A stretch of DNA of 35,349 nt, taken from positions 1 to 35,349 of the IMG/VR virus record IMGVR_UViG_3300045988_110070. One strand, 5' to 3'. Source of the stretch: a virus. Shown here piece after piece: positions 1-35,349 of this stretch; the stretch's first letter is position 1, and each line of letters opens with the position of its first letter. Both the position numbers and the translations under genes were made by a program. The notes beneath the pieces are model-generated. The model had not been told where the DNA came from, did no database searches, and saw nothing but the letters and a program-made list of their open reading frames with translations.

Positions 1-55
1 GGACGCCCTTGAGACGACGGGGAAGGCGCTGTCCGGCATGTCCACGGACGACGCC
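1..55. repeat. Terminal direct repeat, copy 1 (identical to 35295..35349); assembly-style overlap indicating a circular or circularly permuted molecule
   Basis: Read directly: GGACGCCCTTGAGACGACGGGGAAGGCGCTGTCCGGCATGTCCACGGACGACGCC occurs at both window ends. The tape measure frame is continuous once the 55 bp are collapsed (codon starts 33574 and 56 are in phase). Confidence 0.9.
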
Positions 56-1594
56 GTAGCCCAGTTCAAGAAGTTGTCGTCCGAGATGACGAATGGCACG
101 AACAAGTCGATGATCGACTTGATCAACTCCATGCCCGATTTCAAGGCGCACCTTAATGAGGTCGCCAAGCAGATGGGGCTGACAGCGGACGACAACACGC
201 GTCTCGCTATTGCGCTGGGGCAGATCGACCCGAACGCCCAGCAGGCGGCCGGGGGCACGTCCCAGCTGGACGCCGCCATCCGCAAAGCGAAGGAGGGCAC
301 CGACCAGATCGTGCCGTCCATCGAGGAGGTCATCAAGGGAATCAAAACGTACGGCGATACCGTCATCGCGAACTCGAACGCGGATATCAAGTTCCAGGAA
401 GCGCTGAAGAACGTCAATGACGCCGTCAAAGAAAACGGTGCCACACTGGATATCACTACGGAGAGCGGCCGGAAGAATCAGTCCGCCCTGAACGACTTGG
501 CGTCTGCCACGTTCGCGCAGGTCCAGGCCGCGCAGGCCGCTGGTGCCGGCCAGGATGAGCTGCAGTCCAAAATGCAGACCGGTCGGGACGCGTTCATTGC
601 GGCGGCGGAGTCCATGGGGCTCACGGAGGACGAGGCGGTCGAGCTCGCCGATAAGTACGGGCTGATCCCCGAGAAGATCAATACCGAGGTTACAGCTGAC
701 ACGTCGCAGGCGACCGAGGCCGCTAATGGCGCGACGGCCGAGATCGACGGCATGACTGGGACCATCAGTATTTCCGGTGACGCCGCGAAAGCCGACTACA
801 CGCTGACCGTGACGGCCGACTCTATTAACGGCACGACTGGCGTGGTCGAAATCGACGCTGACAATGATCAGGGACTGGCCGGCCTGCAGGAGACTGTGCA
901 GACGATCGACAACTCAGATGGCACGGTGTCCATTCTGGGTGACGCTACCGGGGCCCGGTGGGAGAAGGACTCCGTCCACACTGAGATCGACAACACCACC
1001 GGGACGGTGACGATCTCGGGTAACGACCAGGCGTCCGGGAAGGTGCGCACTGTTAAGTACAACATCGACCAGCTCCACGACAAGGAGATCTCGATAACCA
1101 CCCGGATCAAGCAGATTTTCACGAGTGTCGGACATTGGATCGGCGATCACTGGCCGAAAGGCTCTTGGTTGCGGGCGGACGGCGGCCCCATCACCCCGAT
1201 CAAGGGGTACGCGAACGCCGGCGCTGTGCACGGCCCCGGCGGTGGACGCGACGACTGGATTCCGGCCTGGCTGTCCAACGGGGAGCACGTCCTCACCGCC
1301 GCGGAAGTTGCCGCGGCCGGCGGTCAGGATGCCGTGTACCGCCTGCGGAAGATGATCCGCGACGGCGACATACGCAACTACATGGAGGCGAGGCGCTTCG
1401 CTGACGGGGGCGCCCTGTCGGCGTCCTCGCCGTCCATCGCCGGTGGGGGCGGCGTGTCCGTGAAGCAGCTCCGCAAAGCCATGGACGGGATGAACCTGGA
1501 GCTGACCGTGGACGGGCAGACCACCCTGACCACTAGGATGAAGTCCGTCGCAGACGGGCGCATCGTCACCGCTAACAGGATGATGGGAAGATGA
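1..1594 (+). CDS. Tail tape measure protein, C-terminal part (continues 33574..35349 through the circular junction; joined product 1104 aa)
   Basis: The frame is open from the window start with no upstream stop; stop TGA at 1592..1594. Four copies of a TG(T/V)xxIxGD-like motif (TGTISISGD, TGVVEIDAD, DGTVSILGD, TGTVTISGN). GPGGGRDDWIPAWLSNGEHVLTA resembles a motif common near TMP C-termini. Sits between the chaperones and the tail tip genes. Confidence 0.9.
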   Translation, partial: DALETTGKALSGMSTDDAVAQFKKLSSEMTNGTNKSMIDLINSMPDFKAHLNEVAKQMGLTADDNTRLAIALGQIDPNAQQAAGGTSQLDAAIRKAKEGTDQIVPSIEEVIKGIKTYGDTVIANSNADIKFQEALKNVNDAVKENGATLDITTESGRKNQSALNDLASATFAQVQAAQAAGAGQDELQSKMQTGRDAFIAAAESMGLTEDEAVELADKYGLIPEKINTEVTADTSQATEAANGATAEIDGMTGTISISGDAAKADYTLTVTADSINGTTGVVEIDADNDQGLAGLQETVQTIDNSDGTVSILGDATGARWEKDSVHTEIDNTTGTVTISGNDQASGKVRTVKYNIDQLHDKEISITTRIKQIFTSVGHWIGDHWPKGSWLRADGGPITPIKGYANAGAVHGPGGGRDDWIPAWLSNGEHVLTAAEVAAAGGQDAVYRLRKMIRDGDIRNYMEARRFADGGALSASSPSIAGGGGVSVKQLRKAMDGMNLELTVDGQTTLTTRMKSVADGRIVTANRMMGR

Positions 1595-11411: not shown

Positions 11412-12566
11412 TCAGGACCAGAGGCGCCAACCGGACGAGGTGCCTCCCCCCAGTTCGAACGTCAGCAAGGACGGCGCGGACGAGTCACCGGAAGCGTTCT
11501 GGAACCAGCTGGACCCCGGGTCGACGGTCGGAGCGCAGATGATTTGCCGGCTGTCCCCGACGGTCTGCACTGAGAAGGAGTGCCAGTGACCATGAAGCAA
11601 CACGCGGGCATCCTGCATCCCGGCGACACAGCCGAACGCCTGCCCCCGGAACCAATCTGCGACCCGGTTCTTCGCCCCGGCAGCGTGCCCGTGGGTGACG
11701 CCCATGACTGTCCCGTCGGCGGCGCGCACGGTCAGTGACTCCAGCCGCTGCTCTGGCTTCTCGAACCGGACGTGCTCGTAGCCGGGGCGGCCGGCGATGA
11801 TCTGCTGGATGTTGTCGGCGATCAGTAGCCCGTAGTCGTCCCCGGGGAACGACGCCCTGTTGCTGCGCCCGATCCCTGTGCGGACCTGGCAGTGGTTCGA
11901 CGGGACCGCCACGTAGGTGACCTCAGGGGCGGCTGGTACCAGAGCCCGGAGCGTGTCGGCGAGCAGCGCCTGCGCCGTCCTGATCTGGTAGGTGAGCGGC
12001 ATGTCGTTGGTCTGCGCCTGGGCGACCGTGTTGTTGAACCCTTCGGTGGAGTCGCCGCAGTCCACGAGGATGACCCTCCGGTACCGGCCGGCCGCGTGGG
12101 CGGCGATTCGGGCGCCGGCGGCGCGGACCCGACGGACGGTTTCCTCGGTGCCGCCTCCCTGGTCGGTCTTCCCGATCTGCAGGTCGGACACCACGACCAC
12201 GACCGTCGACTGGGACTTCACGTCGGGGGCCGGCGGGACGGGCTCCGCGAAGATCGGAGCCAGGTCCTCGAACCGCTTCGCCTGCACCTCGCCGCGCTCG
12301 ATAACGCCCGGCTTGTACGTGATTTTCTCGTAGGACCCGTCGGCCAGTCGCACTGTCTTCCCGCGGGCTGTGATGGCTTCGACGGGCACGCCGAAGTAGG
12401 CGTCCACGCCGCCGCGGCTCATCTCGCTGCGACGTTTCAGGGCTTTCCTGTGCCGTCTGACGGCGGCCTCGGAGGTGCCGAACTCGTCGGCGATGGCTTG
12501 GTTGGTGCGCCGCTGGTGCTGCGGCAAAGCGTCGTTTTCGAGGATTGCTTCGTCCAGGGGTGTCAC
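11412..12566 (-). CDS. Metallophosphoesterase (calcineurin/Mre11-like fold) with an N-terminal HTH-like segment
   Basis: Start chosen at GTG 12566 (GTGA overlap with the nrdH-like stop). Motifs in order: VVVVSDLQIG, VDCGDSTEG, AVPSNHC, GVTHGH, LLHGHWH. The N-terminal segment NQAIADEFGTSEAAVRRHRKALKRR looks like an HTH. Confidence 0.75.
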   Translation of the reverse strand: MTPLDEAILENDALPQHQRRTNQAIADEFGTSEAAVRRHRKALKRRSEMSRGGVDAYFGVPVEAITARGKTVRLADGSYEKITYKPGVIERGEVQAKRFEDLAPIFAEPVPPAPDVKSQSTVVVVVSDLQIGKTDQGGGTEETVRRVRAAGARIAAHAAGRYRRVILVDCGDSTEGFNNTVAQAQTNDMPLTYQIRTAQALLADTLRALVPAAPEVTYVAVPSNHCQVRTGIGRSNRASFPGDDYGLLIADNIQQIIAGRPGYEHVRFEKPEQRLESLTVRAADGTVMGVTHGHAAGAKNRVADWFRGQAFGCVAGMQDARVLLHGHWHSFSVQTVGDSRQIICAPTVDPGSSWFQNASGDSSAPSLLTFELGGGTSSGWRLWS

Positions 12567-12841
12567 TTGCTGGCCTCTTCCTTGTAGTTGTTCACCCATT
12601 GGCGGAGCTTGAACATGTTGAACCCGGCCCAATGGGCGACCGTGTCACCGGTGCGCTTGTCGACCACGTAGCAGACGGGGGCGGCCGTGTAGTTGTTGGC
12701 GCCGGCGATCGCCTGCGCGGTGTCGTCGTTCTTGTACTTCGTTTCCAGGTACGGCGTGTTGTTCTTGGTCAGGTACCGCTTCGAGGAGCGGCACTGCTGG
12801 CAGGACGGCTGGGATGCGATCATGATCTCGAATGAAGCCAT
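12563..12841 (-). CDS. nrdH: NrdH-like glutaredoxin/thioredoxin-fold protein
   Basis: 92 aa with a CQQC redox motif near the N-terminus (IASQPSCQQCRSSKRYL). Size and layout are typical of phage NrdH-like redoxins. Confidence 0.7.
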   Translation of the reverse strand: MASFEIMIASQPSCQQCRSSKRYLTKNNTPYLETKYKNDDTAQAIAGANNYTAAPVCYVVDKRTGDTVAHWAGFNMFKLRQWVNNYKEEASK

Positions 12842-18035: not shown

Positions 18036-18296
18036 TCAGCGGGGGGCCGGTGCCTGGTACTGGGCGGGGACCGTTCGTGCCGCAGCGTGGCGGAGAGTGG
18101 CCTTCCTGCGGTTGCTGGACCGGGTGGCTCGGATGGCGACCGGCGCGCCGACGATGAGGCCGAGGACGACGGTCGTCGTGACGCGGCCGGTGACCAGGGC
18201 GAAGGCGGAGGCCAGGGTCCAGACGATGCCGAGGGCGGCGACCCAGGTGATCAGGGCGGTGCCTGCGCGGCTGGGGAGCTGGGCGGTGGTGTTCAT
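18036..18296 (-). CDS. Membrane protein (two predicted TM segments); first gene of the leftward operon
   Basis: 86 aa with RBS GGGAGGAA. TM-like segments GTALITWVAALGIVWTLASAFALV and TTTVVLGLIVGAPVAI. Confidence 0.65.
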   Translation of the reverse strand: MNTTAQLPSRAGTALITWVAALGIVWTLASAFALVTGRVTTTVVLGLIVGAPVAIRATRSSNRRKATLRHAAARTVPAQYQAPAPR

Positions 18297-18340
18297 TCGG
18301 TTCCTCCCGGGTGGTGGGTGTTGATTGAGTTGACGGGACC

Positions 18341-18369
18341 AATCTACGGCGTGTCGACACGCCAGTCAA
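18341..18369 (-). promoter_or_regulatory. Leftward early promoter (sigma-70/SigA type)
   Basis: Minus strand reads TTGACT (18369..18364), a 17-nt spacer, then TAGATT (18346..18341). There are 44 nt from the -10 to ATG 18296, with GGGAGGAA in between. Confidence 0.7.
18348..18363. promoter_or_regulatory. Perfect 16-bp palindrome (candidate operator) filling the promoter spacer
   Basis: GGCGTGTCGACACGCC is its own reverse complement. It occupies 16 of the 17 spacer positions of the leftward promoter. Confidence 0.6.
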
Positions 18370-18413
18370 CCCACGTCACGGTGATATCGGTCACGGTCTA
18401 GGGAGGTGGGTGG

Positions 18414-18477
18414 GGGGTACCAAAGTGAGACGACAGGGGTATCAAAGTGAGACGACAGGGGGGTATCAAAGTGAGAC
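18414..18477 (+). repeat. Three tandem direct repeats (iterons or operator array)
   Basis: GGGGTACCAAAGTGAGACGACA (18414..18435), GGGGTATCAAAGTGAGACGACA (18436..18457) and GGGGTATCAAAGTGAGAC (18460..18477). Spacing is 22 and 24 bp. An AT-rich patch follows at 18479..18503. Confidence 0.85.
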
Positions 18478-18638
18478 CCAAACCTTATCCAAGAGAATAA
18501 ACACCCCCCTACCCCCCACTGCCGGCAGCCGGCCGGGACCACGACAGCCCGCCACCGGCGCCGCCGGCAGCGGACAGACGCGGCCCCGGCGGCAACCAAC
18601 CAGCCGACACCTGGTACGGTTGACCCGTTGGTTGAACA

Positions 18639-18717
18639 GCTGGCCTCATGGTTTTTGTGTTGTGTTCCCCAGAGGCCAGCCGGGGCCCGGGTCGAGCCAC
18701 GAAGCTCCCCGGGCCCC
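18639..18717 (+). other. Two consecutive stable stem-loops upstream of the rightward early operon
   Basis: Hairpin A: GCTGGCCTC (18639..18647) with GAGGCCAGC (18672..18680) and a T/G-rich 24-nt loop. Hairpin B: GGGGCCCGGG (18682..18691) with CCCGGGCCCC (18708..18717) and a 16-nt loop. Confidence 0.5.
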
Positions 18718-18766
18718 AACCAACAGGCCCACAGAACACAAAAACCAACACAACACGGAGAGAGGC

Positions 18767-19570
18767 ATGGAGTACTACAACACCCAGGTCATCGGCGCCA
18801 TAAACATCCGCCCCTACTGGAAACGCCACGACCTCACCGGCGGAGACATCGCCACCCTCACCGCACTCTGCACCTGGTGGAACTGCGAACACATCTACCC
18901 GTCATGGGCCGCCATCGAACAACGCTCGGGACAGTCGCGCCCCACAGTCGCCCGCGCACTCAAGCACCTCGCCGGACTCGGCATCATCGAAACCCGTCGC
19001 ACCGCCGGAAACACCAACGAATACGCCATCCACCTCGACGCTCTCCTCAACCACGACGGCCTCGTAGCCGCCGGCACCACCAGCCACGACCGACTCACTG
19101 AACAACCCCGCACCTACAAGCCGCTCACCCCCGTCGCCGACCGAGTCACCGAAAACGACATCGCCCGCGCACGAGCCAGACACGACAAGGCCGCAGCCAA
19201 GAAACAAGCACAGAAAGCACAGGAAGCCCAGGAACGGGCCGAATTCAACAAAACCTACCCGGGCACCAAAGCCACCATCCGGGACTGGCAGAAAGCCAGA
19301 CAGCACGCCACAGCCCGGGAAATCACCGACGGCGCACGCGCCTACGCGGACCAATGCCGCCGCCGTGAAACACCCGCCCGGTACATCCGGACCGCACGCC
19401 GCTGGCTCGAAGACCACGACTGGGAGAACTACCAGCCCCGGGAACCGGCCGACACGGACGACCTCCTCGGCAAACCCCGCATCAACGACGCGGACCTCGT
19501 CAACGCGGAAGCCGACCCGGAACTCATAGCCAGCATCACAGCGATGTGGGACAACGCGACCAACAACTGA
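18767..19570 (+). CDS. Winged-helix DNA-binding protein, probable replication initiator / replisome organizer (helicase loader)
   Basis: Start at ATG 18767 with RBS GGAGAGAGG. The wHTH-like segment is AAIEQRSGQSRPTVARALKHLAGLGIIETRR. The C-terminal ARYIRTARRWLEDHDWENY resembles the WL..W motif of replisome-organizer/DnaD-type proteins. Lies directly upstream of dnaB. Confidence 0.55.
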   Translation: MEYYNTQVIGAINIRPYWKRHDLTGGDIATLTALCTWWNCEHIYPSWAAIEQRSGQSRPTVARALKHLAGLGIIETRRTAGNTNEYAIHLDALLNHDGLVAAGTTSHDRLTEQPRTYKPLTPVADRVTENDIARARARHDKAAAKKQAQKAQEAQERAEFNKTYPGTKATIRDWQKARQHATAREITDGARAYADQCRRRETPARYIRTARRWLEDHDWENYQPREPADTDDLLGKPRINDADLVNAEADPELIASITAMWDNATNN

Positions 19571-19594: not shown

Positions 19595-20848
19595 ATGGAA
19601 ACCACCACCATCGAACAGTGCCTCATCGGCTCCGCCCTCGCAGGCGGCGAAGCGCAAACCGACACCGCCTGGTCCACCACACCGGACATGATCGCCAACA
19701 CCAGATACGCCGTCCTCTGGGGAATCATCCGCGACCACTGGGCGATGGGCAGGACCCCCACACCCGCTTCCGTCCTCGCCGAAGTCCGCAAGCCGGCCAC
19801 CGGAGAGGACATCCTCGACTGCGTCCACGCGTCCGTGAACCCCGCCGACGCGGACCACTACGCCCTGCTCGTCCAGGAAGCCTCCGCCAAACGGGACGTC
19901 CACGACGTGCTCACCCGCGCCGGGCAGCTCCTCCGAGGAGACGCGACCGCCGCCGAAGTGGCGTCCTGGACGCAGTCCCACATCGGCAGCACCGCCCCCG
20001 ACAGCGGCACCGTCTCCATGCCGTCCCTCGTCGACCAGTGGTACACGGCCAGGAAAGCGACCGGCGTCCGCACCCCATGGGCCAGCGTCAATGACATCGT
20101 CGGCCTGCACCGCGACGGCGGACTCCACGTCATCGGCGCCCGCCCCGCAGTCGGCAAGACTCTCTACGGCCTGTACCTCGCAGCCTGTGCCGCACACAAC
20201 GGCCGGCACGTCCTCTACGTATCCATGGAAATGCCAGCCCGCGAGCTGTTCCCCAGGCTCCTGTCCCAGGCCACGGGCGCCGCACTCAAGTACACAACCC
20301 GAGCGGAGCCAACACCCCACGACCTCACTGACACCCTCAACCGGGCCGCCGCCCAGATCGCGGCCTTGCCAATCCACGTCAGCGACAAGGCCGGCATGTC
20401 CGTCGAACAGGTCGCCGCGCTCGCACGCACCCTCCACCACAAACGGAAGCTCGGAGCTGTCGTCATCGACCACATGCAGCTCCTTGCCCCGTCCCGTGGC
20501 ATGCCCGGCTCCTCACTCAGGGAGATGGTCACCTACCAGTCGAGGGCGCTGAAAGAACTGGCCCTCGAGCTCGACGTTCCCGTGTTCGCCCTGTCGCAGC
20601 TGTCCCGCGCCTCCGAGATGAGGGACGACCTCGCCCCGAAGCTCGCCGACCTCCGCGAGTCGGGCAGCATCGAGCAGGACGCGGACACCGTCGCCCTCCT
20701 GTCCTTGCCCGTCCGCAACGGAGTGCCCGACAAGTCGCGGCTCGTCGTGTCCGTGGCCAAGAACCGGCACGGCGCGACAGGCGACACCGAGCTCATCCGC
20801 CGGCCCGCCATGGCCGTCCTCGCAGAACCCGCCCCGCAAGGCCACTGA
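19595..20848 (+). CDS. dnaB: DnaB-family replicative helicase
   Basis: RBS AAAGGAG. Walker A GARPAVGKT, Walker B VVIDHMQLL, then ALSQLSR and DLRESGSIEQDAD. 417 aa. Confidence 0.85.
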   Translation: METTTIEQCLIGSALAGGEAQTDTAWSTTPDMIANTRYAVLWGIIRDHWAMGRTPTPASVLAEVRKPATGEDILDCVHASVNPADADHYALLVQEASAKRDVHDVLTRAGQLLRGDATAAEVASWTQSHIGSTAPDSGTVSMPSLVDQWYTARKATGVRTPWASVNDIVGLHRDGGLHVIGARPAVGKTLYGLYLAACAAHNGRHVLYVSMEMPARELFPRLLSQATGAALKYTTRAEPTPHDLTDTLNRAAAQIAALPIHVSDKAGMSVEQVAALARTLHHKRKLGAVVIDHMQLLAPSRGMPGSSLREMVTYQSRALKELALELDVPVFALSQLSRASEMRDDLAPKLADLRESGSIEQDADTVALLSLPVRNGVPDKSRLVVSVAKNRHGATGDTELIRRPAMAVLAEPAPQGH

Positions 20849-21210: not shown

Positions 21211-21217
21211 CAACCCG

Positions 21218-21251
21218 GGATCCCCGACGTCGACACAGGCGCCGGGGATCC
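21218..21251 (+). terminator. Stem-loop after the small membrane gene
   Basis: 9-bp arms GGATCCCCG and CGGGGATCC with a 16-nt loop. Confidence 0.3.
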
Positions 21252-21365
21252 GTCCATCTCCATGCCCCCACCGCACCGCACAACACGGACCGGGACCTTG
21301 TACCCGGGGAAGGAGCGCACCCCACCCGCGCGCACGCACCCCGTTGGGGCTATAACACCGAACCA

Positions 21366-21395
21366 GAGATATACAGGTAGTAGATAGTAGGCACC
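21366..21395 (-). promoter_or_regulatory. AT-rich patch with TAG/CTA trinucleotide repeats (DnaA-trio-like) plus a GC spacer
   Basis: GAGATATACAGGTAGTAGATAGTAG followed by GCACC. The bottom strand reads GGTGC-CTACTATCTACTACC immediately 3' of two DnaA boxes. Confidence 0.5.
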
Positions 21396-21412
21396 TGTGG
21401 ATATGTGGATAA
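21396..21412 (-). promoter_or_regulatory. Two abutting DnaA boxes (minus orientation)
   Basis: The plus strand TGTGGATATGTGGATAA corresponds to ATATCCACA (21396..21404) and a perfect TTATCCACA (21404..21412) on the minus strand. Confidence 0.75.
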
Positions 21413-21505
21413 CCCCCGACACCGTTGCAATCCCAACCATCCCCCATCCACAACCACCTGTGGGCAACTCGGGGGGCGCAGTGGATCACTGGTATGCACA
21501 ACCAC

Positions 21506-21560
21506 TTATCCACAGGTTATCCACAACCGATCCACAGGGATACCCACAGGGATATCCACA
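21506..21560 (+). promoter_or_regulatory. Phased array of five DnaA boxes (plus orientation)
   Basis: TTATCCACA (21506), TTATCCACA (21517), CGATCCACA (21528), ATACCCACA (21540) and ATATCCACA (21552). Start-to-start spacing is 11, 11, 12 and 12 bp. Confidence 0.75.
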
Positions 21561-21626
21561 TGACCCAGCACACAGGGTAGGACTGAAGACCCGCCCCGGG
21601 AAGACTCGAACACCGGGAATCCACAA

Positions 21627-21659
21627 CCCGGACACCCACCACCCAGACACCCCCCACCC
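21627..21659 (-). other. G-quadruplex-type motif on the minus strand (C-run / i-motif on plus)
   Basis: Plus-strand C-runs at 21627-29, 21635-37, 21642-44, 21650-55 and 21657-59, with loops of 5, 4, 5 and 1 nt. This fits the (G3+ N1-7)x4 pattern on the minus strand. Confidence 0.45.
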
Positions 21660-21705
21660 GGACAGGAACCACTCACCCCCCCCGTGCACCCCCTAGGATG
21701 AACCC

Positions 21706-22149
21706 ATGGCATGGACCACCAGCACACGCAAACAACGACTCCCGAACAACTGGAACAAAATAAGACAACAAGTCCTACAAAGAAACAACAACAAATGCGC
21801 CGGACTCCCACGCCCCACGGGCACCCCCACCCAGATGGCCACGGGCACCACCACACCCACCGGGAGGTGGCACGCCGCCGGATGCAACCGGCACGCCACA
21901 GACGTCGACCACATCACACCCGGAGACAACCATTCAATAGACAACCTGCAGCCCCTATCCCGCGCCTGCCACCACGCCAAGACCACCGCCGAGACCCTCG
22001 CACGCACAGCCGCACGACACGCAATGACACAACACAAACACGCGCCGCACCCGAACACGCAACAAACACAAAACAAAAACAAAACAAAACGAAACGAAGA
22101 AAAACCAAACGAAACACGAAGCCGAAACCTGCGCGAACGCTTCACATGA
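21706..22149 (+). CDS. HNH endonuclease with an insertion and a low-complexity tail
   Basis: WNKIRQQVLQRNNNKC ... GCNRHATDVDHITPGDNHSIDNLQPLSRACHHAKT matches the phage HNH layout. About 25 aa of P/T/G-rich sequence lies between the Cys pairs. The C-terminal K/N/T/Q tail is encoded by A/C-only DNA. Confidence 0.75.
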   Translation: MAWTTSTRKQRLPNNWNKIRQQVLQRNNNKCAGLPRPTGTPTQMATGTTTPTGRWHAAGCNRHATDVDHITPGDNHSIDNLQPLSRACHHAKTTAETLARTAARHAMTQHKHAPHPNTQQTQNKNKTKRNEEKPNETRSRNLRERFT

Positions 22150-22355
22150 AAACAAAAAAAAATCCGCGACCGAAAACAAAAAAACACCCTGGCACCGCCT
22201 CCCCCCCCGCCCCCGGAAAGGACCGCCGGAGGTAGCAATCACCCAGTGCGATGCCCGATTTGCCGGGATTTCGAGTGACCGCGACCACAAGGTCGGGTCC
22301 GTTACCCTGGAAGTAACCGCCCCGACCCGACGGGGCACAACAGACAGGAGGGCAG

Positions 22356-33573: not shown

Positions 33574-35349
33574 GTGGCCGATAGAACCGTAGTTGTCAAG
33601 CTGACCGCCGACGCGTCCGGAGTGAAGGCCGGCATGCAGGAGGCGTCGTCCGCGACCAAGGGCGCCGCGGACGCGATGTCGCAGGCCGGCCAGGCCGCGC
33701 AGGGCGCCGGCGACCAGATGGGCAACGCCGGCGAGCGGGGCAAGTCCGGACTCGCTGGTCTCGCTGACTCCGCACGCCAGAACGGGGCGGCTTGGACTAC
33801 GGTGGGTACGGCGGTCGCGGGCGTCGGGGCGGGCCTGCTCGGGTTCGCGGGCATGGCCGGGAAGATGTCCGCCGACTTCGATGCGTCCATGTCGTCCGTG
33901 CAGGCCGCCACCCACTCGTCTGCGGATGAGATGTCCCAGCTGCGTGAGGCTGCGATCCAGGCCGGCGCCGATACTGCGTTCTCCGCGACAGAGGCGGCCT
34001 CCGGTATCGAGGAGCTGGCTAAGGCCGGCGTATCCACGAAAGATATTCTCGCGGGGGGCCTTAGTGGTGCTCTCGACTTGGCTGCCGCGGGTGAGATCAG
34101 CGTGTCCGAGGCGGCCGAGACCGCGGCGACCGCAATGGTTCAGTTCAACCTGTCCGGCGATAAGGTGACGCACGTCGCCGACCTGCTGGCCGCTGGTGCC
34201 GGCAAAGCTCAGGGCGGCGTCCACGATATGGCGTACGCCTTGAAGCAGTCCGGCCTTGTGGCCTCTCAGGCCGGCTTGAGCATCGAGGAAACGACAGGTT
34301 CGATTGCTGCTTTCGCGTCCGCCGGTCTGATCGGTCAGGACGCGGGCACGTCGTTCAAGACGATGCTCCAGCGCCTGGAGAACCCCTCCAAGGGCGCCAA
34401 GAACGCTATGGACGACTTGGGCATTCACATCTACGACGCTCAAGGGCATTTCGTTGGGATCACCGCCGTCGCCGAGCAGCTGCGCAACGGGATGAAGGAC
34501 CTCGGCGAGGAGGAGCGCAACACGGCGATGAGCACGATCTTCGGGTCGGACGCCATCCGTGCTGCGAACGTCCTGTACAACGAGGGCGGCGAAGGTATCC
34601 AGGGCTGGATCGATAAGGTCAACGACGCCGGGTATGCCGCCGAGACTGCGCGTCTGAAGCAGGACAACTTGAAGGGCGACATTGAGAAGCTCGGCGGGTC
34701 TTGGGAGACCGCCATGATCAAGATCGGGTCGTCTTCCCAGGCTCCCGTGCGTTCTGTCGTGCAGCACATCACGTCCCTGGTTGACAAGCTCGGGGAGCTC
34801 GGCAGTGGCACTCAGTCCATGATCATGAACTTCGCCGCGTTCGGCGGCGCGGCCCTGACCGCGGTCGGCGGTCTCATGGTGATGGCGCCGAAGATCGTCG
34901 AGATCAAGGACGCCATGAACACACTGAACTGGACGGCCGCCGGCCTGAAGGGGAAACTCGGCGAGGTCGCCACCGGCATGACTGGTTTCGGGCGGGCGGG
35001 GCGGATGATGATCACCGCCGCCCTGATCGAAGGTGTTAAGCATTACGGCGACGAGGTGCGTCGTACGGGCGTGTCCGTGGACGAGATGTCCTCGGCGCTT
35101 TCCCATGGCGGGTCCGTCCTGAACAACCTGGATTTCGACCGGGGCAAGTATTCCCTGCAGGAGTATTCGCAGGCTCTGGCGGACATCAGCCGCCCGTCCG
35201 TGTGGTCGTCCGTGCAGCAGCACTTGGCTTCGTTCGCGGACGGCATCGCCGGCGCTTTCGGGGCGGACACTCGTTCTGACCTGCAGCGCACGAAGGACGC
35301 CCTTGAGACGACGGGGAAGGCGCTGTCCGGCATGTCCACGGACGACGCC
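33574..35349 (+). CDS. Tail tape measure protein, N-terminal part (runs off the window end and continues at 56..1594)
   Basis: GTG 33574 is preceded by GAGGAGGG. There is no stop before the window end. The core DFDASMSSVQAATHSSADEMSQLREAAIQAGADTAFSATEAASGIEELAKAGVS...LLAAGAGKAQGGVHDMAYALKQSG matches the TP901-type TMP core as I recall it. Confidence 0.9.
   Translation, partial: MADRTVVVKLTADASGVKAGMQEASSATKGAADAMSQAGQAAQGAGDQMGNAGERGKSGLAGLADSARQNGAAWTTVGTAVAGVGAGLLGFAGMAGKMSADFDASMSSVQAATHSSADEMSQLREAAIQAGADTAFSATEAASGIEELAKAGVSTKDILAGGLSGALDLAAAGEISVSEAAETAATAMVQFNLSGDKVTHVADLLAAGAGKAQGGVHDMAYALKQSGLVASQAGLSIEETTGSIAAFASAGLIGQDAGTSFKTMLQRLENPSKGAKNAMDDLGIHIYDAQGHFVGITAVAEQLRNGMKDLGEEERNTAMSTIFGSDAIRAANVLYNEGGEGIQGWIDKVNDAGYAAETARLKQDNLKGDIEKLGGSWETAMIKIGSSSQAPVRSVVQHITSLVDKLGELGSGTQSMIMNFAAFGGAALTAVGGLMVMAPKIVEIKDAMNTLNWTAAGLKGKLGEVATGMTGFGRAGRMMITAALIEGVKHYGDEVRRTGVSVDEMSSALSHGGSVLNNLDFDRGKYSLQEYSQALADISRPSVWSSVQQHLASFADGIAGAFGADTRSDLQRTKDALETTGKALSGMSTDDA
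35295..35349. repeat. Terminal direct repeat, copy 2 (identical to 1..55)
   Basis: Direct comparison of the two window ends. Confidence 0.9.

What the first reader, a model, noticed from the sequence alone, without database searches (positions are those of the whole stretch)
18414..18503. Three 22-24-bp iterons plus an AT-rich flank next to the initiator-like gene and dnaB: iteron-type origin or operator array
GGGGTA(C/T)CAAAGTGAGAC occurs three times head-to-tail (18414, 18436, 18460) at roughly two helical turns. It is followed immediately by CAAACCTTATCCAAGAGAATAAACA (18479..18503). That patch is one of the few AT-rich stretches in the genome and contains TTATCCAAG (18485..18493, 7/9 to a DnaA box). 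The array lies about 45 bp from the leftward promoter and 290 bp upstream of a wHTH replisome-organizer-like gene followed by DnaB. Direct repeats, an AT-rich DUE and an adjacent initiator gene form the textbook layout of iteron-controlled phage and plasmid origins. Alternatively the repeats are operators for a rightward early promoter that I could not identify confidently.
Basis: partly seen in the sequence, partly recalled or inferred. Interest (0 to 1): 0.65.

Follow-up and report, generated by a model that had tools for sequence, protein, structure and literature searches.

The report
Initiator-binding repeats of a phage origin
The three repeats are real and are almost certainly the binding sites of the neighbouring replication-initiator protein, because in about 40 related phages the repeat sequence and the protein's DNA-reading helix change together. 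With the adjacent AT-rich patch they look like a lambda-style replication origin, which is an ordinary kind of element seen here with unusually clear comparative evidence.

Summary
GGGGTAYCAAAGTGAGAC occurs three times (18414, 18436, 18460) and nowhere else in this circular 35.3-kb, 67%-GC actinophage-like genome.

Each copy is an imperfect 5-N5-5 palindrome (GTMTC-N5-GAGAC). The array abuts an invariant AT-rich block at 18480-18503, and sits between a leftward promoter and a candidate rightward one.

In 38 distinct relatives the units are hypervariable between near-invariant flanks. Their half-site maps one-to-one, without exception, onto residues 47/59/62/63 of the winged-helix domain encoded 290 bp downstream:
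- GAGAC with P/A59-A62-R63
- GGCAC with R59
- TGCAC with R59 plus N/G/H/S63
- GAGCC with K47 plus T62
- GACAC with S59
- TGCCC with S62 plus N63
- GTTCC with a different helix

The association vanishes in the variable DNA between the two spots.

I therefore take binding by the initiator-like protein as near certain (about 0.9). Origin function, meaning lambda-O-like dimers on tandem dyads melting the AT block and recruiting the phage DnaB, is the best reading (about 0.6) but is untested.

A real, conserved cluster of DnaA boxes with an oriC-like unwinding module lies 2.9 kb downstream (21349-21625) and is a rival or second origin.

Verdict: a new member of a known kind, of moderate interest.

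The parts
18412..18477 (.). Array of three tandem initiator-binding units. Each has a G-run followed by a 15-bp imperfect palindrome. Unit 1 is GTACCAAAGTGAGAC (18417-18431), unit 2 is GTATCAAAGTGAGAC (18439-18453) and unit 3 is the same sequence (18463-18477). Spacing is 22 and 24 bp.
   Evidence: Relatives carry 1-3 units at the same place, and the sequence class varies from genome to genome.
18480..18503 (.). AT-rich block AAACCTTATCCAAGAGAATAAACA, the candidate DNA-unwinding element. It directly abuts the last unit.
   Evidence: It is 68% AT against a genome mean of 33%, in the top 0.2% of 25-mers, and overlaps the 5th least stable 31-mer. It is nearly invariant in 30 aligned relatives while the units next to it vary.
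18504..18517 (.). Invariant CCCCCCTACCCCCC. With the G-runs of the array it brackets the AT block, and 18410-18419 / 18510-18519 form a perfect 10-nt inverted repeat. It is a possible GC clamp or a site for a conserved factor. Its function is unknown.
   Evidence: inverted repeat I14; conservation.
18518..18611 (.). Highly variable GC-rich spacer containing an imperfect 29-nt-arm palindrome (18532-18590). Its variation is not linked to the unit class.
   Evidence: inverted repeat I1. In one search the mean p-distance is 0.35-0.47 and the ANOSIM R is 0.05-0.12.
18341..18369 (-). Leftward early promoter candidate P_L, TTGACT-17-TAGATT. A near-invariant 18-bp palindrome, CGGCGTGTCGACACGCC(G/A) at 18347-18364, fills the spacer. 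A second conserved palindrome, GTGAYATCGGTCAC, lies at 18381-18394.
   Evidence: 1 found against 0.1 expected; conservation.
18612..18620 (+). Rightward promoter candidate P_R, an extended -10 TGgTACGGT. The TG, TA and final T are conserved while the N positions vary.
   Evidence: Per-column conservation and the sequences. This rests on consensus reasoning only.
18627..18724 (+). Structured leader of the initiator mRNA. An outer stem GUUGGU/ACCAAC encloses two hairpins (18639-18680 and 18682-17717 read as 18682-18717).
   Evidence: RNAalifold predicts 29 pairs, 9 of them with compensatory double changes, and G-U wobbles only on the + strand. There is no Rfam match.
18767..19570 (+). Initiator-like wHTH protein of 267 aa. 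The recognition helix H3, residues 58-70, is encoded at 18938-18976. H2, residues 47-54, is encoded at 18905-18928. Residues 47, 59, 62 and 63 covary with the unit half-site.
   Evidence: HTH_36; PHROG 270 at E 3.8e-17 over residues 18-229; AF2 model of a wHTH with pLDDT 80-89 over residues 50-70.
19595..20848 (+). Phage DnaB-type replicative helicase. It is the presumed client that the initiator loads at the melted AT block.
   Evidence: DnaB_C at E 5.7e-56; PHROG 19 at E 2e-72.

Best explanation
**What it is.** The array is the cognate binding site of the winged-helix replication-initiator-like protein encoded 290 bp downstream. Together with the abutting AT-rich block it forms a lambda-O-type, initiator-dependent replication origin. 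It sits between two divergent early promoters.

**Proposed mechanism.**
- Dimers of the initiator bind each 15-bp dyad. One recognition helix reads each 5-bp arm, the two arms lie one helical turn apart, and an A-tract lies between them.
- Two or three dimers on units spaced 22-24 bp apart bend or wrap the DNA.
- This strain, helped by the negative supercoiling that builds up behind RNA polymerases leaving P_L and P_R, melts the 24-bp AT block. The block is clamped on both sides by G/C runs.
- The conserved C-terminal part of the initiator then brings in the phage DnaB helicase encoded next door.
- Host primase and polymerase do the rest.

**Which steps are shown and which are inferred.** That the protein recognises the units is shown here by comparative evidence. 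Dimer binding, bending, melting, helicase loading and origin activity are all inferred.

**Confidence.** About 0.9 that the protein binds the units, and about 0.6 for the full origin model.
For: **1. The repeat is real and unique in the genome**.

**2. The units vary between conserved flanks.** In 38 distinct relatives the units are hypervariable while the flanks are near-invariant.

**3. Half-site and helix map one-to-one.** The right-arm 5-mer maps onto initiator residues 47/59/62/63 with no exception:

| Half-site | Residues 47/59/62/63 | Genomes |
|---|---|---|
| GAGAC | (W/L)(P/A)(A/G)R | 10 |
| GACAC | W S A R | 1 |
| GGCAC | W R A R | 4 |
| TGCAC / CGCAC | W R A (N/G/H/S) | 8 |
| TGCCC | R R S N | 1 |
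| GAGCC | K (A/P) T R | 9 |
| GTTCC | Q, with a different helix | 5 |

Single residues track single base positions: residue 62 tracks base 4, residue 59 tracks bases 2-3, and residue 63 tracks base 1.

**4. These residues sit where base contacts are expected.** They are at helix positions 2, 5 and 6 of the predicted recognition helix (residues 58-70) of a confident wHTH model.

**5. The link is not simple linkage.**
- ANOSIM R against unit class is 0.68-0.78 at 18897-18986.
- It falls to about 0 at 18683-18732 and to 0.05-0.12 in the very variable spacer 18516-18595.
- Over 12 kb no other region reaches these values.
- Leader hairpin variants are shared across classes.

**6. Extra relatives chosen by helix sequence fit the pattern.** Eight relatives were picked on their helix sequence before their DNA was seen. 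They gave either the site class of their helix type or a new site for a new helix.

**7. The recognition helix is evolving fast.** For residues 58-66, dN is 0.49 and dN/dS is 0.93. Elsewhere dN/dS is 0.12-0.5.

**8. Units are recognised as symmetric sites.** They can be inverted, AAAAT versus ATTTT, without losing their place, as expected for a symmetric dimer site.

**9. The protein looks like an initiator beyond its HTH.** It matches PHROG 270 'replication initiation protein' over residues 18-229 (E 3.8e-17), and DnaB follows it directly.

**10. The adjoining block is a plausible unwinding element.** It is among the least stable DNA in the genome.

**11. The usual layout equals the lambda minimal origin.** Two units plus the AT block is the commonest form in relatives. 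[quoted passage not shown]

**12. The units do not overlap a promoter.** They lie 45 bp from the P_L -35 and about 135 bp from the P_R -10. P_L has its own conserved palindromes.
Against: - No experiment or coverage data shows initiation here.
- A conserved cluster of at least 7 DnaA boxes lies 2.9 kb downstream. It has a tandem-box, GC-spacer, CTA-trio module next to the least stable 31-mer of the genome. It is an equally origin-like locus and could be the real or main origin.
- The AT block is nearly invariant in sequence. That is more than a mere easily melted element needs, and it hints at a sequence-specific partner I could not identify.
- One relative (L073) has a single unit, which is few for an origin built on cooperative binding.
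- The GC-skew switch at 18.4 kb coincides with the switch in gene orientation, so it is not independent evidence.
- The protein does not reach the Pfam HTH_36 gathering threshold (22.9 bits against 25). It has no Phage_rep_O or Rep_3 hit.
- The C-terminal two-thirds of the structural model are of low confidence.
Confidence: 0.6

Rival explanations
1. The units are regulatory sites, not an origin. The wHTH protein binds them to regulate early transcription from P_L and/or P_R, as an upstream activator site, by looping, or by autoregulation. Replication then starts elsewhere, most plausibly at the DnaA-box / trio-like module at 21349-21625 using host DnaA.
For: - The same covariation evidence for binding applies.
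- The array lies between two divergent promoters.
- wHTH proteins of this fold are mostly transcription factors. All Foldseek hits are CodY-, MarR- or SlyA-like.
- A conserved oriC-like DnaA module exists 2.9 kb away, next to the least stable DNA of the genome.
Against: - The units overlap neither promoter. They are 45 bp from the P_L -35 and about 135 bp from the P_R -10.
- P_L already carries two conserved palindromes of its own.
- No class-specific half-site lies near P_R. The apparent half-site after the C-run is a spacer variant shared across classes.
- The PHROG 270 match extends far beyond the HTH, and DnaB is the next gene.
- Diversification of specificity together with an abutting AT block is the signature of origin-initiator pairs.
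- No integrase or repressor was detected among the ORFs scanned.
Confidence: 0.25
2. The array is a centromere-like partition site or some other cis-recognition site, for example for packaging. It would be bound by the wHTH protein in the way TubR or ParR bind repeat arrays.
For: Tandem repeats bound by a small wHTH protein are typical of TubR/tubC. TubR appears among the Foldseek hits at ranks 19, 28 and 34. Genome-specific cis-recognition would also favour diversification.
Against: - No TubZ, ParA or ParM NTPase gene lies nearby. The partner gene is DnaB.
- The terminase and HNH genes are 3-6 kb away.
- The profile match is to replication initiators.
- The abutting AT block has no role in partition.
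Confidence: 0.05
3. The units act as RNA or single-stranded DNA hairpins, for example as terminators or a small RNA, rather than as protein-binding sites on duplex DNA.
For: In many relatives the arms change in a compensatory way and keep a 5-bp stem: GGCTC/GAGCC, GTGCC/GGCAC, GGAAC/GTTCC.
Against: - Units flip orientation freely, AAAAT versus ATTTT.
- The window's own units are mismatched stems (GTATC/GAGAC).
- There is no T-run, no upstream promoter and no Rfam match.
- A hairpin function cannot explain the exception-free mapping onto recognition-helix residues.
Confidence: 0.03

Closest known systems
Lambda ori and lambdoid O-protein / iteron origins
   Same: - Tandem sites that are each an imperfect inverted repeat, bound by a dimeric initiator through its N-terminal domain.
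- G-tracts and central A-tracts within the sites.
- An AT-rich region directly beside the array. In lambda, two proximal iterons plus the AT-rich region suffice for unwinding.
- Copy number differs between relatives, 4 against 6 in lambda and Stx phages, and 1-3 here (PMC7466680).
- Site specificity and the initiator N-terminus differ together among related phages (from my own knowledge of lambdoid phages).
- Weak PHROG matches to 'replication initiation O-like' families, with E 4e-6 to 1e-4.
   Different: - The site lies 290 bp upstream of the initiator gene, between divergent promoters, not inside the gene.
- The units are 15 bp with 5-bp arms, and only 2-3 copies are present.
- The protein has no Pfam Phage_rep_O hit.
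- The phage carries its own DnaB instead of a P-type loader for the host helicase.
- The host is a high-GC actinobacterium-like organism.
SPP1 G38P replisome organizer with oriL/oriR, and lactococcal or streptococcal phage Rep-ori modules (PHROG 270 / HTH_36-type initiators)
   Same: An N-terminal HTH origin-binding protein is encoded immediately upstream of the replicative helicase gene. It binds repeated boxes next to an AT-rich segment. This is from my own knowledge; PMC6316719 was found as the revisited SPP1 genome paper but I did not read it.
   Different: In SPP1 the boxes lie within gene 38 and at a second origin, and a separate loader (G39P) is present. Here only one array exists per genome, and no loader gene was recognised.
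Iteron plasmid origins (RepA, pi, TrfA; P1 oriR)
   Same: A winged-helix initiator, repeats spaced about 22 bp apart, and an adjacent AT-rich unwinding element. The host DnaA boxes seen here match the general scheme.
   Different: - Plasmid iterons are asymmetric and are bound by monomers. Their dyad sites serve autorepression at the promoter.
- Here every unit is a dyad and none overlaps a promoter.
- There is no Rep_3 hit.
- The DnaA boxes are 2.9 kb away rather than inside the origin.
Repressor/operator specificity series of heteroimmune temperate phages
   Same: Palindromic sites and the recognition helix of an HTH protein change together among otherwise similar phages.
   Different: The sites do not overlap a -35 or -10 element. 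The protein is a 267-aa initiator-like protein linked to DnaB. No integrase or CI-like repressor was detected in the ORFs scanned.

Membership tests
Lambda-O-type phage origin | Two or more tandem repeats, each with internal dyad symmetry | tested here: met
   The window has three units GTMYC-N5-GAGAC. Perfect palindromes occur in relatives, for example GTCTCAAAATGAGAC and GGCTCAAAATGAGCC.
Lambda-O-type phage origin | AT-rich, easily melted region directly adjoining the repeat array | tested here: met
   18480-18504 is 68% AT, in the top 0.2% of 25-mers, and overlaps the 5th least stable 31-mer. Actual unwinding cannot be tested here.
Lambda-O-type phage origin | A cognate initiator whose DNA-binding domain matches the repeats | tested here: met
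   Half-site class maps onto residues 47/59/62/63 without exception in 38 variants. The association is localised. This is comparative evidence, not biochemical.
Lambda-O-type phage origin | Origin located inside the initiator gene | tested here: not met
   The array lies 290 bp upstream of the ATG at 18767. No unit-like sites occur inside the gene.
Lambda-O-type phage origin | Initiator belongs to the Phage_rep_O family | tested here: not met
   The Pfam scan lists only generic HTH families. There are only weak PHROG 'O-like' matches, E 4e-6 to 1e-4.
Lambda-O-type phage origin | The fragment supports initiator-dependent replication | not testable with these tools
   This needs a plasmid ori assay, or marker-frequency or 2D-gel mapping.
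Plasmid iteron origin (Rep_3 / RepA type) | Asymmetric iterons bound by monomers, and a Rep_3-family initiator | tested here: not met
   The units are dyad-symmetric and can be inverted. There is no Rep_3 hit.
Plasmid iteron origin (Rep_3 / RepA type) | DnaA box or boxes within or abutting the origin | tested here: not met
   TTATCCAAG is a 2-mismatch match, with 40 found against 31.6 expected. Relatives have TTATCT, TTGTCT or TTTTCT at this place. The true boxes cluster at 21396-21625.
Phage replication initiator / replisome-organizer proteins (PHROG 270, Pfam HTH_36) | Profile match beyond the HTH | tested here: met
   PHROG 270 matches at E 3.8e-17 over residues 18-229. Pfam HTH_36 scores 22.9 bits, just under the 25-bit cut-off for the window protein, but is recorded for most close homologues.
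Phage replication initiator / replisome-organizer proteins (PHROG 270, Pfam HTH_36) | N-terminal winged helix, and a gene adjacent to a replicative helicase gene | tested here: met
   The AF2 model has H1 25-35, H2 47-54, H3 58-70 and a wing at 74-88. DnaB starts 25 nt after the stop codon.
Immunity-type operator array | Sites overlap promoter hexamers, and a repressor and integrase are present | tested here: not met
   The units are 45 bp from the P_L -35 and about 135 bp from the P_R -10. No integrase or repressor family turned up in the ORFs scanned. Not every small ORF was scanned.

The most novel reading that the evidence does not exclude
This phage lineage may run a two-part replication control region. 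On one side of the initiator-DnaB cassette sits a fast-diversifying private origin: at least 7 initiator/site specificity alleles among phages whose initiators are otherwise 82-91% identical, with a residue-to-base code that can be read off directly. On the other side sits a conserved, host-type oriC unwinding module made of tandem DnaA boxes, a GC spacer, CTA (3'-GAT-5') trios and an AT-rich DNA-unwinding element. Under this reading the phage combines host DnaA-driven opening with a self-specific initiator. The diversification would then reflect conflict with co-infecting relatives, satellites or origin-decoy defences.
Probability: 0.2. Interest if true: 0.65.

Novelty: new member of a known kind. 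Interest (0 to 1): 0.45.

Why it matters
**Annotation.** If correct, this pins down the origin and its initiator for a widespread, uncultivated group of 34-35-kb high-GC phages. The protein search returned 297 related initiator proteins at E <= 0.001, and no relative turned up among isolated phages.

**A natural specificity series.** The relatives provide a ready-made series of swaps for a winged-helix protein: residue 59 tracks bases 2-3, residue 62 tracks base 4, and residue 63 tracks base 1. This can be tested directly by EMSA and could be used to design orthogonal origin-initiator pairs for actinobacterial vectors.

**An open question.** The co-occurring DnaA-box module raises a testable question about how phage-encoded and host initiators share the work.

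Tried and rejected
**Searches that found nothing useful.**
- DNA (megablast and blastn) and protein (tblastn) searches of the INPHARED phage collection with the region and the initiator found nothing. TerL has only matches below 47% identity, to Microbacterium, Bifidobacterium and Mycobacterium phages.
- Two GTDB genome scans, with the initiator alignment and with the 465-aa protein, found no prophage or host. The host remains unknown.
- Rfam found nothing meaningful in 18200-18850. No tRNAs were found.
- The PDB sequence search and the Foldseek search of the AF2 model gave only generic winged-helix regulators. They did not help with family membership.

**Ideas considered and rejected.**
- *A third half-site after the C-run* (GTGCC, GCTGCAC, GTTCCGG). 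It looked class-specific at first. It also occurs in genomes of other classes (L080, L041, L076), so it is a spacer variant.
- *A second association peak at 12160-12279, in the exonuclease gene.* It is a two-haplotype linker that does not separate class A from D or B from C2.
- *The long ORF 18410-19570 as an N-terminally extended initiator.* Rejected: the distance from the AT block to the conserved LCTWWNCE motif takes all three phases among relatives, and the stretch contains a covarying RNA structure.
- *A minus-strand promoter in the AT block* (TATTCT). Its key A is lost in two relatives.
- *Extra unit copies elsewhere in each genome.* Only scattered single chance matches were found.
- *The GC-skew maximum at 18.4 kb.* It is confounded with the switch in gene orientation.
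Full report
**1. The observation**

The window is a circularly assembled genome of about 35.3 kb. Its last ~56 nt repeat its first, and it is 66.6% GC.

GGGGTAYCAAAGTGAGAC occurs at 18414, 18436 and 18460 on the + strand and nowhere else, even with 3 mismatches allowed. The expected count is 0.02, and 0 of 100 shuffles reached 3. TRF gives this array the highest score in the window. The 11-mer core has no other copy with up to 1 mismatch. Spacing is 22 and 24 bp.

The flank 18480-18504 is 68% AT against a genome mean of 33%, in the top 0.2% of all 25-mers. The overlapping 31-mer is the fifth least stable in the genome.

The one detail that fails is the "DnaA box". TTATCCAAG is a two-mismatch match, of which the window holds 40 against 31.6 expected. 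Relatives have TTATCT, TTGTCT or TTTTCT at that spot.

**2. Setting**

The array lies in a 470-bp intergenic region (18297-18766) where gene orientation switches.

- *To the left, on the minus strand:* a small membrane ORF, unknown small ORFs, RecT, dUTPase, a RusA-like resolvase, SSB, an NrdH-like glutaredoxin and an exonuclease.
- *To the right, on the plus strand:* a 267-aa protein (18767-19570) followed by DnaB (19595-20848). The 267-aa protein has an N-terminal winged helix. It matches HTH_36 at 22.9 bits and PHROG 270 "replication initiation protein" at E 3.8e-17 over residues 18-229. It also has weak matches to "O-like" PHROGs.
- No integrase or repressor family turned up in the ORFs scanned.
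- *Leftward promoter:* TTGACT-17-TAGATT sits at 18369-18341. A near-invariant 18-bp palindrome fills its spacer.
- *Rightward promoter candidate:* 18612-18620 shows exactly the conservation pattern of an extended -10, TGnTAnnnT.
- *Leader RNA:* just downstream of that candidate promoter lies a leader of about 100 nt with an outer stem and two hairpins. Nine of its pairs are supported by compensatory changes, and G-U wobbles occur only on the + strand.

The units and the AT block therefore lie wholly between two diverging transcription start regions, and they overlap neither promoter.

**3. Relatives**

No isolated phage in INPHARED resembles the region or the protein. IMG/VR and metagenome scans gave 51 loci, and look-ups of chosen homologues gave eight more. 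Together they yield 38 distinct variants in which both the site region and the helix could be read.

In every one the flanks are conserved. These include the P_L region, the palindrome GTGAYATCGGTCAC, and above all CCAAACCTTATCYAAGAGAATAAACACCCCCCTACCCCCC. The units between the flanks are hypervariable.

Features of the units across relatives:
- Most genomes have two units, one has a single unit, and three (including the window) have three.
- Each unit is a G-run followed by a 5-N5-5 palindrome. In one class it is 5-N3-5.
- Examples are GTCTCAAAATGAGAC, GGCTCAAAATGAGCC, GTGCCAAAGTGGCAC, GTGCAAAAACTGCAC, GTGTCAAAATGACAC, GGGCAAGAACTGCCC and GGAACAAAGTTCC.
- The window's GTATC/GTACC left arms are degenerate versions of GTCTC.
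- Units can be inverted in place, AAAAT versus ATTTT, sometimes within one genome.

**4. Who reads the units**

I aligned the initiator proteins sorted by unit type. Their variation concentrates in residues about 45-70 and follows the unit class.

Across the 38 variants, the right-arm 5-mer of the unit nearest the AT block maps onto residues 47/59/62/63 with no exception:

| Half-site | Residues 47/59/62/63 | Genomes |
|---|---|---|
| GAGAC | (W/L)(P/A)(A/G)R | 10 |
| GACAC | W S A R | 1 |
| GGCAC | W R A R | 4 |
| TGCAC / CGCAC | W R A (N/G/H/S) | 8 |
| TGCCC | R R S N | 1 |
| GAGCC | K (A/P) T R | 9 |
| GTTCC | Q, with a different helix (DLTDRGVRK/E) | 5 |

Single residues track single base positions. 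A62 changing to T or S goes with base 4 changing from A to C. P/A59 changing to R goes with bases 2-3 changing from AG to GC. R63 changing to N, G, H or S goes with base 1 changing from G to T.

An AlphaFold model built on 32 homologues gives a confident winged helix: H1 25-35, H2 47-54, H3 58-70 and a wing at 74-88, with pLDDT 80-89 over residues 50-70. In this model residues 59, 62 and 63 are positions 2, 5 and 6 of the recognition helix, the classical base-contacting positions.

This is not mere linkage:
- A sliding ANOSIM against unit class peaks at the units themselves, which is by construction. It peaks again at 18897-18986 with R 0.68-0.78.
- It drops to about 0 at 18683-18732. It is only 0.05-0.12 in the spacer 18516-18595, even though that spacer is the most variable DNA of the region.
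- Over a 12-kb alignment of 16 genomes no other segment comes close. The runner-up at 12.2 kb is a two-haplotype linker that does not resolve the classes.
- Leader-hairpin variants are shared between classes.

In residues 58-66, dN is 0.49 and dN/dS is 0.93, against dN/dS of 0.12-0.5 elsewhere.

I conclude with about 0.9 confidence that this protein binds the units. Given the dyad symmetry and the free inversion of units, it most likely binds as a dimer.

**5. What the site does**

The best-supported reading is an initiator-dependent origin of the lambda-O type. Tandem dyads are bound by initiator dimers, next to an AT-rich block that melts. The initiator's conserved C-terminal part then recruits the phage DnaB encoded next door.

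The commonest architecture in relatives, two units plus the AT block, equals the minimal unwinding-competent fragment of lambda ori. Lambda iterons are likewise imperfect inverted repeats bound by O dimers, contain G-tracts and central A-tracts, and vary in number between related phages (PMC7466680).

The position between divergent promoters suggests, by inference from the twin-domain model of supercoiling, that early transcription helps opening. The G-runs on one side and CCCCCCTACCCCCC on the other would confine the bubble.

None of these steps after binding is shown here.

**6. What argues against it, and the rivals**

The main complication emerged while I was checking the DnaA-box claim. 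The 500-bp non-coding stretch between 21211 and 21705 holds three perfect TTATCCACA boxes, three one-mismatch boxes, and about twelve boxes with up to two mismatches. Five of them are in tandem at 11-12-bp spacing.

The cluster is conserved at the same offsets in every relative whose locus reaches that far. Read on the minus strand, its left end is TTATCCACA-TATCCACA-GGTGC-CTA-CTA-T-CTA-CTA followed by the least stable 31-mer of the whole genome.

That arrangement resembles the box / GC-spacer / DnaA-trio / AT-rich "basal unwinding system" of bacterial oriC. The 13-bp spacing from the better box to the first trio matches the commonest spacing reported for that system (PMC8287927, PMC8235120). 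I could not verify the relative orientation of the boxes against the published examples.

This locus could be the main origin, a second origin, or a DnaA-dependent regulatory or titration site. I therefore keep a 0.25 rival in which the units are regulatory sites for the wHTH protein and initiation occurs at 21.4 kb.

Points against that rival:
- The units overlap no promoter.
- P_L has its own conserved palindromes.
- There is no class-specific site near P_R.
- The profile match to initiators extends well beyond the HTH.
- Diversifying specificity next to an AT block is typical of origin-initiator pairs.

A centromere or packaging-site reading (0.05) lacks any partner NTPase. An RNA or single-stranded DNA hairpin reading (0.03) is contradicted by unit inversion, by mismatched stems in the window, and by the mapping onto the protein.

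Other caveats:
- The AT block is more strictly conserved than an unwinding element needs to be.
- One relative has a single unit.
- The GC-skew maximum at 18.4 kb coincides with the change in gene orientation and carries no independent weight.

**7. Comparison with known systems**

It works like lambda ori and its O protein. It is not a member of that family in the strict sense, for three reasons. The site is upstream of the initiator gene rather than inside it. The protein has no Phage_rep_O match. The phage brings its own DnaB rather than a loader for the host helicase.

It also differs from plasmid iteron origins. Its units are dyads rather than asymmetric monomer sites, the protein has no Rep_3 match, and there are no DnaA boxes in the origin.

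The protein fits the loose class of phage HTH "replication initiation / replisome organizer" proteins (PHROG 270).

**8. Verdict**

The finding is real and its interpretation is largely right. It is a new member of a known kind.

Its value lies in two things. The comparative proof of cognate recognition is unusually clean, with a residue-to-base code across at least seven specificity classes. And an oriC-like DnaA module sits on the other side of the replication cassette.

Interest is 0.45.

Noticed in passing
window 21349-21625 (non-coding stretch 21211-21705): Dense, conserved cluster of DnaA boxes. There are 3 perfect TTATCCACA boxes (21404 on the - strand, 21506 and 21517 on the + strand), 3 with one mismatch and about 12 with up to 2 mismatches. 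Five are tandem at 11-12-bp spacing. On the minus strand the left end reads TTATCCACA-TATCCACA-GGTGC-CTA-CTA-T-CTA-CTA, followed by the least stable 31-mer of the genome (21360-21390). This resembles the oriC basal unwinding system. It is conserved at identical offsets in all relatives that reach it. It could be a second or alternative origin, or a DnaA sink.
   Followed up: partly
window 18627-18724 (+): Conserved structured leader of the initiator mRNA. An outer stem GUUGGU/ACCAAC encloses two hairpins. There are 29 predicted pairs, 9 with compensatory double changes, and G-U wobbles only on the + strand. There is no Rfam family. It may be a translational or attenuation control element.
   Followed up: partly
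window 18341-18394 (-): Strong sigma-70-like leftward promoter TTGACT-17-TAGATT. Its 17-bp spacer is filled by a near-invariant 18-bp palindrome, CGGCGTGTCGACACGCC(G/A). A second conserved palindrome, GTGAYATCGGTCAC, lies just upstream at 18381-18394. These are probably operators for a conserved regulator that I did not identify.
   Followed up: partly
window 1-56 and 35294-35349: The end of the window repeats its start by about 56 nt, so the record is a circular or terminally redundant assembly of a complete genome of about 35.29 kb. Relatives are 34-35.6 kb.
   Followed up: no
window 22061-22197: The most AT-rich part of the genome, 75-80% AT. It holds A-rich short repeats: AACAA about 11 times, and a 24-nt unit GAAAACAAAAAAAAACCCGCCACC twice. 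It spans the 3' end of the HNH gene and the DNA just after it, upstream of the 465-aa gene. Its function is unknown. It could be related to cos or packaging, given the HNH-terminase context.
   Followed up: no
window 12160-12279 (inside exonuclease gene 11412-12632, - strand): A variable linker in the PHROG 284 exonuclease exists as two haplotypes..PEVKSQST.. and ..PDGQATL... They correlate partly with origin class: classes A and D against classes B and C2. This probably reflects mosaic ancestry rather than function.
   Followed up: partly
window 18518-18611 and relatives: The GC-rich spacer between the C-run and the candidate rightward promoter is the most variable DNA of the region, yet it keeps an imperfect long palindrome and a conserved CGCCGGnGGCGG core. 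Lambda ori also has a palindrome beyond its AT-rich region, which I recall from memory and have not checked.
   Followed up: no
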